Virus record (IMG/VR): IMGVR_UViG_3300025909_000005
Length of the DNA stretch: 64,000 bases
Origin: a virus
Lineage: Duplodnaviria > Caudoviricetes
Reading direction: 5' to 3' (one strand)
The notes under the pieces were generated by a model. It did not search any database, was not told the DNA's origin, and was given only the letters and a program-made list of their open reading frames with translations. Position numbers and translations under genes: made by a program. Shown here piece by piece: positions 19,270-41,508 of the stretch; position 1 is the first letter of the stretch, and each line of letters starts with the position of its first letter.

Positions 19270-19347
19270 GTCTCCTTAGCTCAGATGGATTAGAGCGTCG
19301 CGCTACGAACGCGAAGGCCGGGGGTTCAAGTCCCTCAGGAGGCACCA
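19270..19347 (+). tRNA. tRNA-Arg(ACG)
   Basis: Loop CTACGAA, ACCA. Confidence 0.95.
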
Positions 19348-19755: not shown

Positions 19756-19760
19756 AAACA

Positions 19761-19850
19761 TGCAACCGCTAGGACGTCGGTTATCGGTTAACTTTGGTTC
19801 GAATCCAAACTTCGCGCAAGCGTTGTATCCCGACCCCGCTTTTTGTTGCA
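19761..19850 (+). ncRNA. Y-like RNA with tRNA T-arm
   Basis: TGCAAC/GTTGCA and GTCGG/CCGAC stems; GGTTATC; TTTGG-TTCGAAT-CCAAA T-arm; GCAA tetraloop. Confidence 0.6.
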
Positions 19851-19859
19851 CTCATTCTT

Positions 19860-19933
19860 GGTAGTGAAGCTGAATGGTTAAGCAGGAGTCTCATAAGCTC
19901 TGTGTCGTGGGTTCGATTCCCACCATTACCACC
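19860..19933 (+). tRNA. tRNA-Met or Ile2 (CAT)
   Basis: Loop CTCATAA, ACCA. Confidence 0.85.
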
Positions 19934-19939
19934 AAATAT

Positions 19940-20034
19940 TCCGCGGTACTCTAACTGGTAAGAGACCTCACTGTTAATGAGACGTAAAGGCCTTCGGGCG
20001 TAATATGGAGGTTCGAAGCCTCTCTGCGGAGCCA
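19940..20034 (+). tRNA. tRNA-Asn(GTT) with long variable arm
   Basis: Loop CTGTTAA; ~24-nt variable region containing a TTCG hairpin; GCCA. Confidence 0.8.
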
Positions 20035-20286: not shown

Positions 20287-20362
20287 TCCGAGATAGCTCA
20301 GTTAGCAGAGCGAGCCCCGTTTAGGGGACGGTACGGTGGTGCAATTCCATCTCTTGGAGCCA
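20287..20362 (+). tRNA. Atypical or pseudo tRNA (Lys TTT or Asn GTT reading ambiguous)
   Basis: Good acceptor and D arm, GCCA; irregular anticodon arm CCCCGTTTAGGGG. Confidence 0.5.
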
Positions 20363-20366
20363 GAAA

Positions 20367-20430
20367 TCCCGCACAAAGCGTTTCTGAACTTTGCTTTCAC
20401 GAGCCGAATGCAACGATTATCGCGGGGCCA
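20367..20430 (+). ncRNA. Y-like RNA candidate ending in CCA
   Basis: TCCCGC/GCGGGG closure; GCCGAATG and GATTATC motifs. Confidence 0.55.
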
Positions 20431-20436
20431 AACAAT

Positions 20437-20722: not shown

Positions 20723-20847
20723 GCGGACGTAGTGTAGTGGACAGCACAGAACGTCGAAAGCAAGTTTTTGTCGCGTAAGTGACCGGACGCAATCGGTTAT
20801 CTTCTACGAAAAGACTAGGGTTGGTTCGAATCCAACCGTCCGCACCA
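20723..20847 (+). tRNA. tRNA-Arg(ACG) with 50-nt insertion at position 27/28
   Basis: Perfect acceptor, D and T arms; removing 20750-20799 gives GTCTT-CTACGAA-AAGAC and a 75-nt tRNA. Confidence 0.7.
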
Positions 20848-20871
20848 TTCATCTTTGTGTTACAATGTTCC

Positions 20872-21153
20872 ATGAAACATTCAGCACTCGAAGAAAAGCT
20901 CAGGGCCCAAGGCATCAATATCCTTCCGAGAATGAAGGGTCCTGTTGATGCAATTGAGGACGGTGAGCTAGGAATTCGGTATATCATGATCGCGCGAACT
21001 GTCAAGTTGACCTCGATCGATGATCTAATCAAGCTTCTGCCTGCTGAGGGCTTCTCCCTCTACAAGGTATTCAACACCATTGTTCGCTTTGGTGTTCCAG
21101 AAATCTGCTACATTGAAAGGACGCGCGATGCGCAGCACAGCTCCGACGCCTAG
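20872..21153 (+). CDS. Hypothetical protein within tRNA array
   Basis: 93-aa ORF after a TACAAT element. Confidence 0.5.
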   Translation: MKHSALEEKLRAQGINILPRMKGPVDAIEDGELGIRYIMIARTVKLTSIDDLIKLLPAEGFSLYKVFNTIVRFGVPEICYIERTRDAQHSSDA

Positions 21154-21181
21154 CGCGTCACGAAAACGTACCACAATCCAT

Positions 21182-21259
21182 GGGGTTGTGGTGTTCAACG
21201 GTTAGCACACTGGACTTTTAATCCTGCAGGATCCGGTTCGAATCCGGACGGCCCTACCA
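21182..21259 (+). tRNA. tRNA-Lys(TTT)
   Basis: Loop CTTTTAA, ACCA. Confidence 0.9.
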
Positions 21260-21260
21260 A

Positions 21261-21635
21261 ATGACAAAACCATTTCACGAACTGACAGAGCGACTTCGTC
21301 GCGAACAGATCCTGATGGAACAAGATCATTGCTGCGCTCGATGTGGTCTTGATAAATGGCTGGAGAATTTGATTCCACTTGAGTTGGAACACAAAGACGG
21401 CAACAACAAGAATAATGAGCGCTCCAATCTAGAATTTCTCTGCCCAAACTGTCATGCGTTGACAGACACGTGGCGTGGAAGAAACAAGAATGGGTCCAAG
21501 AACATAAGTGATGAAGAGCTGCTAGCAGCTCTTAAGTCCTCACCAAGCATTCGACAAGGTCTACTGAAGTTGGGCCTGTCAGGCAAGGGCAACAATTACA
21601 GTCGAGCAAACCGGCTGTTATCCCTCAACCCATAA
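21261..21635 (+). CDS. HNH (homing-type) endonuclease
   Basis: CARCG..LELEHKDGNNKNNERSNLEFLCPNCH; AT-richer than flanks. Confidence 0.9.
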   Translation: MTKPFHELTERLRREQILMEQDHCCARCGLDKWLENLIPLELEHKDGNNKNNERSNLEFLCPNCHALTDTWRGRNKNGSKNISDEELLAALKSSPSIRQGLLKLGLSGKGNNYSRANRLLSLNP

Positions 21636-22220: not shown

Positions 22221-22296
22221 GCGTCTGTAGCTCAGTGGACAGAGTAGCGCCCTCCGAAGGCGTTGGCCGGTGGTTCGACTCCACTCAGACGCACCA
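22221..22296 (+). tRNA. tRNA-Arg(CCG)
   Basis: Loop CTCCGAA, ACCA. Confidence 0.95.
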
Positions 22297-22305
22297 AGTT
22301 TTAGT

Positions 22306-22382
22306 GGTGGCTATAGCTCAGTTGGTAGAGTCCGTGATTGTGATTCACGTGGTCGTCGGTTCAAGCCCGACTAGTCACCCCA
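22306..22382 (+). tRNA. tRNA-His(GTG)
   Basis: Loop TTGTGAT, G-1, CCCA. Confidence 0.95.
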
Positions 22383-22384
22383 TT

Positions 22385-22459
22385 GCTCTCTAAACATTGC
22401 CGGTGATGCCCTGTCTTGTAAGCAGGTTTAAGACAGTTCGAATCTGTCAGAGAGCTCCA
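22385..22459 (+). tRNA. tRNA-Thr(TGT)
   Basis: Loop CTTGTAA, TCCA. Confidence 0.85.
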
Positions 22460-23623: not shown

Positions 23624-24223
23624 ATGGAACAGTATCCGAGCATCGCAGGGAGCGCCAAGGCGCCGCTCAATAAACCCTGCATCGCGTTCTACAAGTACGA
23701 CGGCTCTAACCTCCGCTGGGAGTGGACGCCTAAGAACGGCTGGCACAAGTTTGGTACGCGTCGACACCTGTTCGACCACACCGACCTTCAGTTCGCTCAG
23801 GCAATTCCTCTCTTCATGAACGGACTCGGTGACGAGATCGTCTATCGAACAAAGCAGCTTGTCCGCAACCCACAGCGGATTACGGCGTTCACCGAGTTCT
23901 TCGGCCCGAACAGCTTTGCTGGCTCTCACGTCGAGTCAGACCCGAAGGAGCTTCGCCTCTTCGACGTCTACCTCTTCCAAAAGGGGCTGCTGCCAGCAAA
24001 GGACTTCGTGAAACTCTACGGAGACATGAAGGAAGCTGCGGAGATTGTGTATGAAGGTCCACTGAACAAGCAGTTCGTGATGGACGTTCAGAAGGGGAAG
24101 TACCCGGTGTTCGAAGGCGTCATTGCCAAGGGACACGAATTCATGGTCAAGATCAAGACAGATGAGTACTTCCTGAAGCTTCGCCACCACTTTCCACAAC
24201 GTTGGGAGGAGTACGGAGAATGA
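23624..24223 (+). CDS. ATP-dependent ligase adenylation domain (Rnl2-like RNA ligase)
   Basis: KYDGSN, TEFFG, LFDV, EGVIAK, VKIK motifs. Confidence 0.8.
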   Translation: MEQYPSIAGSAKAPLNKPCIAFYKYDGSNLRWEWTPKNGWHKFGTRRHLFDHTDLQFAQAIPLFMNGLGDEIVYRTKQLVRNPQRITAFTEFFGPNSFAGSHVESDPKELRLFDVYLFQKGLLPAKDFVKLYGDMKEAAEIVYEGPLNKQFVMDVQKGKYPVFEGVIAKGHEFMVKIKTDEYFLKLRHHFPQRWEEYGE

Positions 24224-24477
24224 AGACGAATCATCGACGCAAGAACCGCGGTCTCAAGATTCCACCAGGAGTCTGGTACACGGGCAAGGATGAAGATGGC
24301 AGGCCGAAGTACGGCATGCTGACGTCCATGGCTCTGATGAGAGGCGGCTGTAGCCCGAGCTTCTCTGGCCGGGATGGTGCGCGGCGAGCAATCGCAGGAA
24401 AGAAAAAGAAGGATCATCGATCAGCACGCCACCGTGCTGACGACGCGGTCCGCCAGGAAATTATCTCCCTGGAGTAA
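24220..24477 (+). CDS. Basic hypothetical protein
   Basis: ATGA overlap. Confidence 0.55.
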   Translation: MKTNHRRKNRGLKIPPGVWYTGKDEDGRPKYGMLTSMALMRGGCSPSFSGRDGARRAIAGKKKKDHRSARHRADDAVRQEIISLE

Positions 24478-24489
24478 TTTGAAATAAAT

Positions 24490-24620
24490 GGTGATGTAGT
24501 GTAAGGGTTAGCACGGTAACAACATCGATCTACGCCTTTTGTTCCCTCGGGAACCGCTTGTTGATTGGTTATCCACTCATAAAGGGCAAGAACTGGTTCG
24601 AGTCCAGTCATTCACCTCCA
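24490..24620 (+). tRNA. tRNA-Met-like (CAT) with 55-nt insertion at position 27/28
   Basis: D and T arms intact; removing 24517-24571 gives GTCCA-CTCATAA-AGGGC and a 76-nt tRNA; TCCA end. Confidence 0.65.
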
Positions 24621-24684
24621 ATCCCGGGCCTAGTCAAGAAATTGGCTGGGCCCGTTTTGCAACCGCCCCAGATAGGAGCACATC

Positions 24685-24903
24685 ATGTCCAAGACCATCA
24701 AGGACCACGTCCAAGGCTACTCCAAGTTCCAGTTCTACCGCAAGGGTGAGCTGCACTACCGCACGGTCGACACGAAGTTCGACTTCGTCGTTCCACTCGA
24801 GGACTGCGGTGATGGCACGTTCCTGGACGAAGACAAGTCGATGTTCATGATGCGCTACATTCGCAAGCAGATGGAAGCCAATGCGGAGGGTCAGGCTGCG
24901 TAA
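24685..24903 (+). CDS. Conserved phage hypothetical protein
   Basis: GGAG SD; FQFYRKGELHY..FVVPLEDCGDGTF. Confidence 0.7.
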   Translation: MSKTIKDHVQGYSKFQFYRKGELHYRTVDTKFDFVVPLEDCGDGTFLDEDKSMFMMRYIRKQMEANAEGQAA

Positions 24904-39424: not shown

Positions 39425-39512
39425 GCGACCGAAAGTTAGACGATTATCTTGCAGATACGTTGGTGTCCCCGGACATCATGTTACCCGTCCAACATCTCTT
39501 TGTCGCCCTTTT
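39425..39512 (+). ncRNA. Y RNA candidate
   Basis: GCGAC-C-GA / TTGTCGC bulged-C helix (compensatory variant of the GUCCGA/UUGAC Ro site); GATTATC; upstream of Ro60. Confidence 0.7.
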
Positions 39513-39542: not shown

Positions 39543-39842
39543 GTCTCACTGACGAACCGCCGCGACTTGGTTATCCATTCTACGGCAACCTTTCATTGTC
39601 CTCGGATGATGACGTGCATCGAGATACGTTAACTCGGTTAGGTGCCTGTGCCGAATTGCAGGATATTGCTGATCGAAATCAGATAGGACACCAGTAGCCG
39701 AATCTCCCGGTGTAGGAAGTCATTAACCTCAGGTGCCTGGCCGTCGGTCGGGAATTTCTTTTGAGGCATGTAGGTGAATCAACCGCGAAAGCGGGCCACC
39801 GTTCCGAACTTTCCAAACGCATTTTTTGTTTGTCAGTGAGAC
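39543..39842 (+). ncRNA. 300-nt closed structured RNA upstream of Ro60
   Basis: GTCTCACTGACGAAC / GTTTGTCAGTGAGAC 15-bp terminal helix; GGTTATC; two GAAA tetraloops. Confidence 0.65.
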
Positions 39843-39891
39843 ACCCTCATTCGCTGCCGTGTGCAGCCGTACCTCCAGAAAGGAAACACCC

Positions 39892-41508
39892 ATGTCATCT
39901 TCGATCTACACGAACACCGCAGCTTCCCAGTCGACCAAGCCGACCGTCGCCAAGACGCCAGTCACGTCGCCACAGCCGGGTCGCGAAGCCGAGATGTCTG
40001 TGAACAACACGGGTGGCTTCACCTTCGTGCTCACGCACTGGGGTATCCTGGACCGCTTCCTCATGCTCGGCTCCGAGTCGGGCGGCTACTACGTCGGTGC
40101 GCAGGAAACGACCAACATGTCGTTCGACGTGGTCAAGAAGTGCATCAAGGAAGACGGCGTTCGCGTCGTGAACCGTGCGCTCGAGTACTCGCTCGCAGGC
40201 CGTGCGCCGAAGAATGACCCGGCTGTCGTGGCCATCGCCCTCGCGGCGGTGTACGGCAACCCGGAAACCGTGGCGGCTGCCTACGAGGCGCTGCCGAAGA
40301 TCGCACGTACCGGTACGTGGCTGTTCCTGTTCGTCGAAATCCTCGACAAGCTGGGCAAGTGGAACGCCGCTGCAAAGCGCGGCGTGGCGAACTGGTACAC
40401 CAGCAAGCCAATCGACAAGCTGTCCGTCCAGCTGCTGAAGTACCAGCAGCGCAACGGCTGGGCGCACCGCGACGTGCTGCGTCTCGCACACGTGAAGCCG
40501 TCGTCTGACGTCGTGTCGAACGTGTTCCGCTACTCGATCAAGGGCGAACTGCCGGAAGGCGCAAGCGTTCCGCAGGTGCTCATCGACTTCGAGTCGCTGA
40601 AGCGTTCTGAGGACAAGAAGACTGTCCTGAAGCTGATTGAAGGCTCTGACCTGCTCACGTGGGAAATGGTGCCGACACAGTTCCTGAAGGACAAGGACGT
40701 GCTCATGGCGCTTCTGGCGAACATGGGTCTCACGGCAATGATCCGCAAGCTGGGTGCCCTCTCGGCCCACGGCGTGATCGCACCGCTGTCGGAAGGTTCG
40801 AAGCTGGTCATGGCCAAGCTCTCGGACATCGATCAGCTGAAGCGCGCTCGTGTCCACCCGGTCACGATCCTGCAGGCGTTCAAGCAGTACCAGTCAGGCC
40901 ACGGCACGAAGGGTTCGCTGACCTGGTCGCCAGATGCACGTGTGCTGACGTCGCTTGACGACGCCTTCTACGCAGCGTTCGCGCTAGGTGAGAAGACGAA
41001 CGACAACTACCTGCTGGGTGTCGACATCTCGGGCTCGATGCAGGGCGCGAACGTGAACGGTTCTCCGAACCTCACGGCCGCTGAAGTTGCAGCAGTGATG
41101 GCCATGGCCATCGTGCGCAACCAGCCGAACCACTGGATCACTGGCTTCAACACCCGTCTGATCGACCTGCACCTGACTCCGTCGATGCGCCTCGACGCAG
41201 CACTGAAGGCGCTGAACAAGCACTGGGACGGTGGCGCCACCGACCCGTCGAAGACCTACGAGTACGCCACGGCGCACAACATCAAGGTCGACAAGTTCGT
41301 GTCCATCACGGACAACGAAGTGAACTGCGGCCAGCAGCACACGTCGCAGGCCCTCGCCAAGTACCGTCAAAAGTCTGGCGTGGCAGCGAAGAGCGTGATC
41401 ATCGGCACCTCGGTGTCCAAGTTCACACTCGCTGACCCGAAGGATGCCGGCATGCTGGACATCGCGGGCTTCGACAGCGCGGCACCGCAGCTGATCGCAC
41501 AGCTCTAA
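39892..41508 (+). CDS. rsr: Ro60/TROVE-domain RNA-binding protein
   Basis: NNTGGFTF, LDRFLMLGSESGGYY, YQQRNGWAHRD, vWA VDISGSM, TDNE, DIAGFDS. Confidence 0.95.
   Translation: MSSSIYTNTAASQSTKPTVAKTPVTSPQPGREAEMSVNNTGGFTFVLTHWGILDRFLMLGSESGGYYVGAQETTNMSFDVVKKCIKEDGVRVVNRALEYSLAGRAPKNDPAVVAIALAAVYGNPETVAAAYEALPKIARTGTWLFLFVEILDKLGKWNAAAKRGVANWYTSKPIDKLSVQLLKYQQRNGWAHRDVLRLAHVKPSSDVVSNVFRYSIKGELPEGASVPQVLIDFESLKRSEDKKTVLKLIEGSDLLTWEMVPTQFLKDKDVLMALLANMGLTAMIRKLGALSAHGVIAPLSEGSKLVMAKLSDIDQLKRARVHPVTILQAFKQYQSGHGTKGSLTWSPDARVLTSLDDAFYAAFALGEKTNDNYLLGVDISGSMQGANVNGSPNLTAAEVAAVMAMAIVRNQPNHWITGFNTRLIDLHLTPSMRLDAALKALNKHWDGGATDPSKTYEYATAHNIKVDKFVSITDNEVNCGQQHTSQALAKYRQKSGVAAKSVIIGTSVSKFTLADPKDAGMLDIAGFDSAAPQLIAQL

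What the first reader, a model, noticed from the sequence alone, without database searches (positions are those of the whole stretch)
24490..24620. Second tRNA (CAT) with an insertion at the identical 27/28 position and the same GGTTA|TC junction
Seen: removing 24517-24571 (55 nt, closed by TAAC/GTTA) yields a 76-nt tRNA with a G27-C43 pair and loop CTCATAA. The insert sequence differs from the Arg insert but ends with the same GGTTA|TC. GGTAAC/GTTATC pairing competes with the anticodon stem for the TC, suggesting a conformational switch. The gene lies just downstream of the Rnl2-like ligase operon (23624-24477). Independent recurrence at the same site argues for a system rather than decay.
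Basis: partly seen in the sequence, partly recalled or inferred. Interest (0 to 1): 0.8.

Follow-up and report, generated by a model that had tools for sequence, protein, structure and literature searches.

The report
tRNA gene carrying Ro60-docking arm
This giant soil phage encodes a methionine-type tRNA whose anticodon stem carries an extra, conserved 55-base arm built like the Ro60-binding stem of Y RNAs, so it is most likely a tRNA-shaped Y RNA and not a tRNA with an intron or a decaying gene.

Summary
Window 24490-24620 is a CCA-ending tRNA(CAT) body interrupted after G27 by 55 nt (24517-24571). The junction reads GGTTA|TC, as in the Arg(ACG) copy at 20723-20847.

The insert is a conserved three-helix arm: P1, P2, then a U.G pair, a bulged C and a capped helix P3. 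I found 12 such genes in 9 Ro60-encoding phages. P3 pairs in 72/72 cells and P2 in 78/84, with many compensatory changes.

The arm's 3' strand carries ACCG-N9-10-GGUUAUC. The same motif occurs in a Y RNA upstream of this phage's Ro60 gene. Mycobacteriophage YrlA and human Y4 carry close variants of it.

In distant relatives the arm-bearing tRNA-like RNA lies 0.1-1 kb from Ro60. The arm matches the mycobacteriophage YrlA stem with strand order rotated.

Best reading (about 0.65): a circularly permuted YrlA-type Y RNA that keeps an anticodon arm and a free CCA end and docks phage Ro60.

Not supported:
- the intron/ligase idea
- the conformational switch
- a functional link to the neighbouring ligase

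No RNA or binding data exist.

This scan had already reached the same reading for the Arg copy and for similar genes in other genomes. I found no published description.

The parts
24490..24516 (+). 5' part of the tRNA body: acceptor 5' strand (24490-24496), U8 A9, D arm GTGT/AAGGGTTA/GCAC (24499-24514), G26, G27
   Evidence: Sequence; ARAGORN cloverleaf after in-silico removal of the arm
24517..24525 (+). Arm, P1 5' strand and bulge: TAAC (24517-24520) or AAC (24521-23) pairs with GUU(A) of GGUUAUC; A24524 and U24525 are unpaired
   Evidence: AAC/GUU pairs are A-U 12/12, A-U 12/12 and C-G 8/12 plus one U.G. RNAfold of the isolated arm gives this helix
24526..24532 (+). Arm, P2 5' strand CGATCTA, pairs with 24561-24567
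   Evidence: 6/7 pairs here; 78/84 cells paired over 12 members with compensatory changes
24533..24539 (+). Asymmetric internal loop, 5' side (CGCCTTT); U-rich end conserved
   Evidence: Alignment A3 and hand parse
24540..24556 (+). Ro60-site-like core: U24540.G24556 pair, P3 GUUCC/GGAAC (24541-45 with 24550-54) capped by tetraloop CUCG (24546-49), bulged C24555
   Evidence: P3 plus closing pair 72/72 cells paired in 12 members, 4 columns with changes on both sides. Same C-G / bulged C / G.U core in mycobacteriophage Colt YrlA. Resembles the vertebrate GGUCCGA bulged helix (PMC4201824). The population variant G24549A lies in the loop
24557..24573 (+). Arm 3' strand: junction CUUG, P2 3' strand UUGAUUG (24561-67), GUUAUC (24568-73); with 24553-56 it forms the motif ACCG-N10-GGUUAUC
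   Evidence: Motif 4x in window vs 0.01 expected. Exact motif in one Ro60-upstream RNA (39556-39575); close variants in the other (39427-39448), in Colt YrlA and in human Y4 5' end
24572..24587 (+). Anticodon-type stem-loop: UCCA (28-31), loop CUCAUAA with CAU at 24578-24580, AGGGC (39-43); G27-C43 closes it across the arm; A31.A39 mismatch
   Evidence: Loop and mismatch conserved in orthologues G033 (A.A) and G012 (A.C)
24588..24620 (+). Variable loop AAGA, T arm ACTGG/TTCGAGT/CCAGT, acceptor 3' strand CAT(T)CACC with one bulged T, discriminator T24617, encoded CCA
   Evidence: DNA contigs from three other samples keep the bulge; the discriminator is A in two of them
24625..24658 (+). Terminator-like hairpin (13 bp, GAAA loop) followed by UUUU, 5 nt after the CCA
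   Evidence: RNAfold -24.5 kcal/mol, z -4.96, 0/200 shuffles as good; missed by the simple scan
20723..20847 (+). Sister gene: tRNA-Arg(ACG) with the same kind of arm (P3 GUCGC/GUGAC, GUAA loop)
   Evidence: Rfam tRNA 38.9 bits over 122 nt; CM R1 54.5 bits; 85% identical orthologue in G035
39826..41508 (+). Phage Ro60 gene (TROVE + Ro60 vWA), the proposed protein partner, same strand, 15 kb downstream
   Evidence: Pfam PF05731 4e-23, PF25045 3e-44

Best explanation
The gene encodes one stable RNA of about 131 nt. It is a tRNA-shaped body with an open acceptor end, encoded CCA, D and T arms and a CAU anticodon-type loop. A 55-nt arm branches from the 5' strand of its anticodon stem.

The arm is the Ro60-binding stem of a Y RNA. 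It consists of a base helix (AAC/GUU of GGUUAUC), a 7-bp helix P2, an asymmetric loop, then U.G, a bulged C and a helix P3.

The RNA is therefore a circular permutation of a YrlA-type Y RNA. The break lies at the acceptor end, as in a real tRNA, and the Ro stem is capped.

Inferred mechanism: the phage Ro60 ring (39826-41508) docks on the bulged-C helix and the ACCG...GGUUAUC strand. The tRNA-shaped part then acts as the effector module, presenting or tethering Ro60 to proteins that recognise tRNAs. Candidates are processing, repair or modification enzymes, PNPase-type nucleases, or host anticodon nucleases.

Shown here:
- the anatomy
- its conservation and covariation
- the shared motif with Ro60-linked RNAs
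- co-occurrence with Ro60

Inferred:
- that Ro60 binds
- that the arm stays in the mature RNA
- what the complex does

This copy has a bulged acceptor stem and a 31.39 mismatch. With a bulky arm and a bound protein on the anticodon stem, it probably does not decode on the ribosome.
For: 1. The arm is a selected structure.
- There are 12 members in 9 phages.
- P3 pairs in 72/72 cells and P2 in 78/84.
- On alignment A3, 91.5% of cells pair against 26-44% when partners are slid. Nine pairs change on both sides, and 0/500 shuffles reach the observed score.
- P1 and P2 were not in the model that made that alignment.

2. Orthologues exist.
- Arg copy vs G035: 85% identity overall and 95% in the tRNA body.
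- CAT copies occur in G033 and G012 with the same D arm and the same 31.39 mismatch.
- With arms removed, ARAGORN of 10 bodies as tRNAs.

3. The motif links the arm to Ro60 RNAs.
- ACCG-N9-10-GGTTATC occurs 4x in the window vs 0.01 expected.
- One of the four lies in the RNA just upstream of Ro60.
- Relatives' Ro60-upstream RNAs read GGUCGAAC-N6-GGUUAUC.
- Colt YrlA, a mycobacteriophage representative of the published YrlA class that partly matches Rfam YrlA, has the same P1, P2, C-G/bulged C/G.U core and P3 in rotated order.
- Human Y4 begins GGUCCGA-N8-GGUUAUC (PMC7012775).
- The motif overlaps the strand that Ro60 contacts (PMC4201824).

4. Position.
- In G018 (also G015, G027, G030) an arm-bearing tRNA-like RNA lies about 100 nt upstream of Ro60.
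- In G056 and G051 it lies about 1 kb from Ro60 on the same strand.

5. Co-occurrence. CM R2 hits 7 of 33 Ro60-encoding contigs and 0 of 24 without Ro60. Fisher p = 0.016.

6. Ordinary Arg(ACG) and CAT tRNAs coexist in the same arrays, so the arm-bearing copies are not needed for decoding.

7. Population variants in the element fall in the tetraloop and the discriminator only.
Against: - There is no RNA or protein-binding evidence. The one metatranscriptome run does not cover the element.
- Rfam YrlA does not hit the element.
- This copy is 15 kb from Ro60, outside the 4-kb criterion used for YrlA. In G012 the copies are 90-100 kb away.
- Most Ro60-encoding contigs examined have no R2 hit.
- The motif in this phage (RACCG) departs from the published GNCGAA consensus.
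- Sequence cannot say whether the arm or the anticodon hairpin stacks under the D stem.
- The co-occurrence test mixes fragments and related genomes, and half of the contigs were collected through Ro60 itself.
Confidence: 0.65

Rival explanations
1. The 55 nt are an intervening sequence. An endonuclease removes it and a phage RNA ligase (23624 or 10166) joins the halves, giving a normal 76-nt tRNA-Met. Ro60 or the arm structure might control this step.
For: - Removal restores a cloverleaf that ARAGORN accepts.
- Two ligase-type genes are in the window.
- The gene follows one of them by 12 nt.
Against: - The cut sites would lie inside a helix strand, not in a bulge-helix-bulge.
- The site shifts between 27/28, 28/29 and 29/30 relative to the motif.
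- 55 nt is too small for a group I intron, and Rfam finds no intron or ribozyme family.
- Five relatives with such genes have no tRNA-splicing endonuclease, while the control genomes give hits.
- The arm sequence and structure are conserved as in Y RNAs, which an excised spacer would not need.
- Ligase adjacency is not conserved.
- The spliced product of this copy would still have a bulged acceptor stem and a 31.39 mismatch.
Confidence: 0.1
2. The arm is a functional structured domain that works without Ro60. It could be a handle for another protein, or a shield or decoy that alters recognition of the tRNA by host anticodon nucleases or processing enzymes.
For: - Covariation shows selection for structure only, not for a partner.
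- In most carriers the genes lie far from Ro60 and inside tRNA arrays.
- Earlier notes of this scan (e1-2704762, e1-4263093) describe tRNA-like RNAs paired with non-Ro proteins.
Against: - The arm carries the strand motif shared by Ro60-adjacent RNAs of this phage, of relatives, of mycobacteriophage YrlA and of human Y4.
- No R2 hit was found in 24 Ro60-less related contigs.
- In G018, G056 and G051 the RNA sits beside Ro60.
Confidence: 0.17
3. This particular copy is a decaying pseudogene of an arm-bearing tRNA, or an insertion scar with no function.
For: - It is the only member with a bulged acceptor stem.
- It is not detected by Rfam's tRNA model even with an insert allowed, unlike the Arg copy.
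- It is only 72% identical to its closest orthologue body.
Against: - The arm is intact: P3 6/6, P2 6/7, 59.5 bits with R1.
- The T and D loops, CAU loop and CCA are kept.
- Three other samples carry the same sequence, with changes only in the tetraloop and the discriminator.
- It has its own strong terminator.
Confidence: 0.06

Closest known systems
YrlA, the tRNA-like Y RNA of bacteria and mycobacteriophages (Rfam RF02553; Chen et al. 2014, PMC4201824; Wang et al. 2018, bioRxiv 10.1101/312249)
   Same: - A Ro60-type stem is joined to a tRNA-shaped module with D and T arms.
- The stem has the same parts as in phage Colt YrlA: AAC/GUU base helix, 7-bp P2, asymmetric loop, G.U, bulged C, long helix.
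- It is encoded by Ro60-carrying phages.
- M. smegmatis YrlA is even cut by RNase P in its acceptor loop and receives CCA.
   Different: - Strand order is rotated. Here the RNA ends are at the acceptor stem with an encoded CCA, and the Ro stem is capped by a tetraloop.
[quoted passage not shown] This RNA keeps a 7-nt CAU loop.
- It lies in or beside a tRNA array, 15 kb from Ro60.
- The Rfam model does not detect it.
Metazoan Y RNAs (e.g. human Y4) with Ro60
   Same: - The strand motif GGUC-C-G-A, 8 nt, GGUUAUC matches GGAAC-C-G, 10 nt, GGUUAUC here.
- Both have a bulged-C helix as the Ro60 site (PMC4201824).
   Different: - In metazoan Y RNAs the 5' and 3' ends form the stem and there is no tRNA-like module.
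- Homology over this distance is not shown. The likeness is a short motif.
Thermus phage phiLo Ro60 with Yrl1/Yrl2 (PMC12135203)
   Same: Phage-encoded Ro60 binds phage-encoded Y-like RNAs. This was shown by EMSA, and the complex engages host PNPase.
   Different: Those RNAs are ordinary stem-bulge-stem Y RNAs next to the gene, defined by a CGAA motif, not tRNA genes with an arm.
Non-canonical tRNA introns of Archaea (bulge-helix-bulge, various positions) and bacterial group I tRNA introns
   Same: Extra sequence interrupts a tRNA gene, and removing it in silico restores a cloverleaf.
   Different: - There is no BHB motif and no splicing endonuclease in relatives.
- The insert is too short for group I.
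- The insert itself is the conserved, covarying part.

Membership tests
Canonical elongator tRNA | Detected as a tRNA by standard finders | tested here: inconclusive
   The full-length gene is not called by ARAGORN or Rfam RF00005, even at E<=5. It is called tRNA-Met(CAT) only after in-silico removal of 24517-24571.
Canonical elongator tRNA | Regular 7-bp acceptor stem and paired 31-39 | tested here: not met
   The acceptor stem needs a bulged T (24611/12), or else has two mismatches. A31.A39 is a mismatch. Three other samples keep the bulge.
Canonical elongator tRNA | U8, A14, GG in D loop, T-loop TTCRANY, U33, purine 37, 3' CCA | tested here: met
   Read from the sequence.
Canonical elongator tRNA | Aminoacylation and use in translation | not testable with these tools
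   No biochemical data.
YrlA (RF02553) | Match to the Rfam covariance model at its gathering score (69 bits) | tested here: not met
   No YrlA hit on the element at E<=5. Even bona fide-type phage YrlAs (Colt, L190) reach only 33-35 bits, over the tRNA-like core.
YrlA (RF02553) | Ro60-site motif on the stem strand (GNCGAAN0-1G, like vertebrate GGUCCGA) in a bulged helix | tested here: met
   A variant form is present: GGAAC-[C]-G with U.G and bulged C, conserved 12/12. The GNCGAA form is present in the homologous G018 RNA.
YrlA (RF02553) | tRNA-like module with T and D arms | tested here: met
YrlA (RF02553) | RNA termini in the Ro stem, acceptor closed, no free CCA, no anticodon loop | tested here: not met
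   The topology is rotated: open acceptor with encoded CCA, capped Ro stem, CAU loop present.
YrlA (RF02553) | Encoded within about 4 kb of Ro60 on the same strand | tested here: not met
   This copy is on the same strand but 15 kb upstream. The criterion is met by the related RNAs of G018, G056 and G051.
YrlA (RF02553) | Bound by Ro60/Rsr | not testable with these tools
   Needs EMSA or RIP.
tRNA intron (BHB type or group I) | Bulge-helix-bulge at the junctions with a splicing endonuclease, or a group I ribozyme core | tested here: not met
   The junctions lie at the base of helix P1. There is no PF01974 in 5 carrier genomes, while the controls give hits. The insert is 55 nt with no Rfam intron hit.

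The most novel reading that the evidence does not exclude
These are working, chargeable tRNAs, or sentinels that look like them, permanently fitted with a Ro60 handle. The phage would then couple its Ro60 particle directly to the tRNA pool. One way is to guard particular anticodon loops (Arg-ACG, Met/Ile-CAU, Asn, Val, Thr, Glu) against host anticodon nucleases. Another is to act as bait whose cleavage recruits Ro60 with nucleases or ligases for tRNA repair. They would also be the missing link showing that YrlA Y RNAs arose from a tRNA that acquired a Ro60-binding arm and was later circularly permuted.
Probability: 0.2. Interest if true: 0.85.

Novelty: new variant of a known kind. Interest (0 to 1): 0.62.

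Why it matters
- Y RNAs and Ro60 are conserved from bacteria to humans, yet what the tRNA-like half of bacterial Y RNAs binds is unknown.
- A form that is still a recognisable tRNA gene, with anticodon and CCA end, sitting among ordinary phage tRNAs, gives a concrete and testable link between Ro60 particles and tRNA biology during infection.
- It suggests how YrlA evolved.
- It explains 'broken' or 'intron-containing' tRNA calls in giant-phage genomes that standard tRNA finders miss.
- The finding is not unique to this window. The scan found the same design on the Arg copy here and in several other phage and giant-virus genomes, so the value of this copy is mainly as confirmation and as a second, more diverged member.

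Tried and rejected
- Near and distant BLAST of the locus against GenBank phages gave no match.
- Synteny through the upstream ligase-like protein found 34 related contigs, none with the element downstream.
They yielded only L071 (the G033 orthologue), L190, L268, L277 and L283.
- The listing of Rfam tRNA hits over 20 contigs was cut before the low-scoring insert-bearing hits.
- Sequencing runs: the only RNA run (X22, contigs) covers 21060-21305, 22238-22402 and 24635-24850 but not the element or the Arg copy. It says nothing about expression or splicing.
- CM R2 found nothing in the cultured Sinorhizobium phage Phosso. Phosso has only an ordinary Y-type motif 1.6 kb upstream of its Ro60.
- A motif hit in Ro60-less G002 (L155) turned out to be a normal type II tRNA-Tyr, so it is chance.
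- RNAfold of the whole 131 nt gives a non-cloverleaf minimum-energy fold with z -1.1, which is uninformative.
- Nearest-neighbour comparison of tRNA bodies could not decide between a single origin and repeated insertion.
- Burroughs and Aravind 2016 and the 2020 Annual Review on bacterial Ro60 could not be read.
- No structure or complex prediction was run, because the tools take no RNA.

Full report
**Context.** The window comes from a giant soil phage with no close relative in GenBank.
- It carries about 30 tRNA genes at 18.3-22.5 kb, plus outliers.
- It has an RNA ligase at 10166-11257 (PF09414).
- It has a Ro60 gene at 39826-41508 (TROVE plus Ro60 vWA). This is 37% identical to the Ro proteins of cluster C mycobacteriophages.
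- No whole genome is held for it.

**The observation.** The sequence at 24490-24620 reads as follows.
- Acceptor 5' strand, U8 A9, a D arm (GTGT / AAGGGTTA / GCAC), G26 and G27.
- Then 55 nt (24517-24571).
- Then UCCA, the loop CUCAUAA, AGGGC, a 4-nt variable loop, a standard T arm, an acceptor 3' strand, T and CCA.

ARAGORN and Rfam do not call the full gene. With the 55 nt removed, ARAGORN calls tRNA-Met(CAT).

The Arg(ACG) gene at 20723-20847 is interrupted at the same place. It also ends its insert with GGTTA followed by TC.

Two details need adding.
- The acceptor stem pairs fully only if one T of the TT at 24611-12 bulges out.
- A strong hairpin plus U-tract (24625-24658, -24.5 kcal/mol, z -5) ends the gene.

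Contigs from three other rhizosphere samples carry the same element, including the extra T. Their only differences are G24549A in a tetraloop and T24617A at the discriminator.

**What the insert is.** A short bipartite motif, ACCG, 9-10 nt, GGTTATC, occurs four times in the window against 0.01 expected. All four are on the + strand:
- in both tRNA inserts
- in a spacer of the tRNA array (19765)
- in the RNA just upstream of Ro60 (39556)

Looser forms add three more sites: 18545, 20404 and 39427.

In every case the ...AC-C-G part can form a helix ending C-G, bulged C, G.U.
- In the free-standing copies at 18545, 19764 and 39427, and less convincingly at 39555, the partner strand lies downstream. 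The RNA ends would then close that helix, as in ordinary Y RNAs. At 20404 I did not find such a partner.
- In the two tRNA inserts the partner lies immediately upstream through a tetraloop. In this copy it is U-GUUCC-[CUCG]-GGAAC-[C]-G. In the Arg copy it is U-GUCGC-[GUAA]-GUGAC-[C]-G.

**Relatives.** I collected related contigs in two ways: through a neighbouring protein and through Ro60. I then searched them with covariance models built from the inserts: R1 and R2. This gave 12 arm-bearing tRNA genes in 9 phages:

| Phage | Genes |
|---|---|
| this window | Arg, Met |
| G012 | Asn, Val, a Leu-like type II gene, Met |
| G033 | Met |
| G035 | Arg |
| G050 | unassigned |
| G051 | Thr |
| G049 | Glu-like |
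| G056 | unassigned |

- After in-silico removal of the arm, ARAGORN accepts 9 of 10 bodies.
- The Arg gene of G035 is the orthologue of the window's Arg copy: 85% identity overall and 95% in the tRNA body.
- The CAT genes of G033 and G012 share this copy's D arm, and they share a mismatch at 31.39 (A.A and A.C).
- In relatives these genes sit inside tRNA arrays, next to ordinary tRNAs of the same anticodon. The same holds here: an ordinary Arg-ACG at 19270 and a CAT tRNA at 19860.

**Arm architecture and covariation.** From the tRNA outward the arm has these parts.
- P1: AAC pairs with the GUU of GGUUAUC.
- A 1-3-nt bulge.
- P2: 5'-CG-N5 pairs with N5-YG.
- An asymmetric loop: 6-8 nt ending in U's on the 5' side, 3-4 nt on the 3' side.
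- A U.G pair (C-G once).
- A bulged C.
- P3: 4-6 bp closed by a loop of 3-7 nt, often a GNRA or UUCG-type tetraloop.

Over the 12 genes, P3 with its closing pair is paired in 72/72 cells and P2 in 78/84, with many pair types per column.

On the nine-sequence alignment A3:
- The structure pairs 91.5% of cells, against 26-44% when partners are slid.
- Nine pairs change on both sides.
- No shuffle out of 500 reaches the observed covariation.
- P1 and P2 were not part of the model that produced that alignment.

This rules out a random insertion or a decaying scar as a general explanation.

**Link to Ro60.**
1. Published work places the Ro60 contact on the 5' strand of a bulged helix: GGUCCGA in vertebrates and GNCGAAN0-1G in YrlA (PMC4201824). 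The arm's strand GGAAC-C-G is of that type.
2. Human Y4 RNA begins GGUCCGA, 8 nt, GGUUAUC (PMC7012775). This is the same two-part motif at nearly the same spacing.
3. Mycobacteriophage Colt represents the published phage YrlA class. Its core matches Rfam YrlA at E 1.7e-4. Its stem has the same parts: TAAAC / GUUACC base, a 7-bp P2, then G.U, C-G, bulged C, G.U and a 9-bp terminal helix. The difference is order. In YrlA the RNA starts and ends in that terminal helix and the acceptor is closed. Here the terminal helix is capped and the acceptor is open.
4. In G018 (likewise G015, G027, G030) the RNA directly upstream of Ro60 is itself an arm-bearing tRNA-shaped RNA. It has the GUGU...GCAC D arm and a GGUCGAA motif at the bulge, and Rfam's tRNA model finds it as a 123-nt hit. 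In G056 and G051 the arm-bearing gene is about 1 kb from Ro60 on the same strand.
5. R2 hits occur in 7 of 33 Ro60-encoding contigs and in none of 24 without Ro60. Fisher one-sided p = 0.016. The one motif match in a complete Ro60-less relative is an ordinary tRNA-Tyr.

This test is weak. Many contigs are fragments, they are related to each other, and half were collected through Ro60.

**Against the intron reading.**
- The junctions lie at the foot of a helix, not in a bulge-helix-bulge.
- Their position relative to the anticodon stem shifts between members: after 27, 28 or 29.
- 55 nt cannot hold a group I core, and Rfam finds nothing but tRNA in 18.0-27.5 kb.
- Five carrier genomes lack a tRNA-splicing endonuclease, while the archaeal controls score.

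ORF 23624-24223 does look like a minimal ligase: KYDGSN, EFFG, EGV and KIK motifs, and phrog_548 at E 1.9e-6. Pfam misses it. Its neighbourhood with this gene is not conserved.

**Against a dedicated switch.** Across the family, however, only AAC/GUU is constant. GGUUAUC overlaps the anticodon stem by 0, 1 or 2 nt. One or two nucleotides of branch migration are expected at any three-way junction.

**An open point.** In YrlA the Ro stem occupies the place of the anticodon stem, and a 'V arm' lies between it and the T arm. In these genes the anticodon-type hairpin sits exactly in that V-arm position in the sequence order. Colt YrlA even has a 3-bp hairpin with a 7-nt loop AUUGCAA there. The RNA may therefore fold in either of two ways:
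- as a tRNA with a side arm
- as a YrlA whose V arm imitates an anticodon arm

Sequence cannot decide this, and it bears on whether the loop could ever reach a codon.

**Verdict.** The finding is real, and it is one member of a conserved family. The best explanation is a circularly permuted YrlA-type Y RNA: a tRNA with a Ro60-docking arm. The arm stays in the mature RNA. I put this at about 0.65.

This copy is the more irregular of the two in the window (bulged acceptor, 31.39 mismatch), so a decoding role is unlikely for it.

**Prior work.** Earlier notes of this scan reached the same reading for the Arg copy (e1-5407358) and for similar genes in other genomes (e1-5308151, e1-5340904, e1-3458874, e1-733404). 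I re-derived it independently on this copy and did not test the notes on other genomes.

In the papers I could search YrlA is described only in its closed-acceptor form without an anticodon loop. I therefore rate this a new variant of a known kind.

Noticed in passing
window 18538-18618, 19757-19850, 20363-20436: The spacers of the tRNA array hold small RNAs with the same Y-type motif. The first has normal Y-RNA topology: an 8-bp terminal helix ATCTGAAC/GTTCAGAT, a bulged C and G.U (RNAfold z -2.3). The second adds a T-arm-like hairpin (TTTGG-TTCGAAT-CCAAA). The third has GCCGAAUG...GAUUAUC.
   Followed up: partly
window 23624-24223: A 199-aa ORF with covalent nucleotidyltransferase motifs (KYDGSN, EFFG, EGVIAKG, MVKIK). 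It has only a weak PHROG RNA-ligase match and no Pfam hit. It is conserved (42-73% identity) in 34 giant-phage contigs.
   Followed up: partly
window 10166-11257: An RNA ligase (PF09414, phrog_24030 at 2e-135) whose first ~80 residues match HNH endonuclease families.
   Followed up: no
window 20848-21113: One rhizosphere sample (X5) has a contig that joins 20847 to 21114 with 5 other letters in between. That strain lacks the 266 nt right after the CCA of the Arg copy.
   Followed up: no
L181:3242-3364 (-), = G018; also G015, G027, G030: The RNA directly upstream of Ro60 in these phages is a tRNA-shaped RNA with the arm at 27/28. It has a GGUCGAA motif and a non-canonical 7-nt loop AUAUCCC, and no encoded CCA.
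   Followed up: partly
L001:1203-1350 (Mycobacterium phage Colt): Between the Ro stem and the T arm of its YrlA lies a small hairpin CUC-AUUGCAA-GAG whose loop looks like an anticodon loop (U33, UGC, A37).
   Followed up: no
L268 ~4033-4150 (IMGVR_UViG contig, + strand): A Y-type motif (GAACCGAAAG...GGTTATCC) lies directly 5' of a tRNA-Ile(GAT)-like sequence with the GUGU...GCAC D arm and an A31.A39 mismatch. This is possibly another arrangement of the same parts.
   Followed up: no
L359:~880-915 (Sinorhizobium phage Phosso, cultured): A GCCGA-N9-GGGTTATC motif lies in a 500-nt gap 1.6 kb upstream of its Ro-like gene, probably an unannotated Y RNA. No arm-bearing tRNA was found by R2.
   Followed up: partly
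window 19940-20034 and 20287-20362: ARAGORN calls a 95-nt tRNA-Asn with an unusually long extra region, and a tRNA with a two-base 'anticodon'. These are odd members of the array and were not examined.
   Followed up: no
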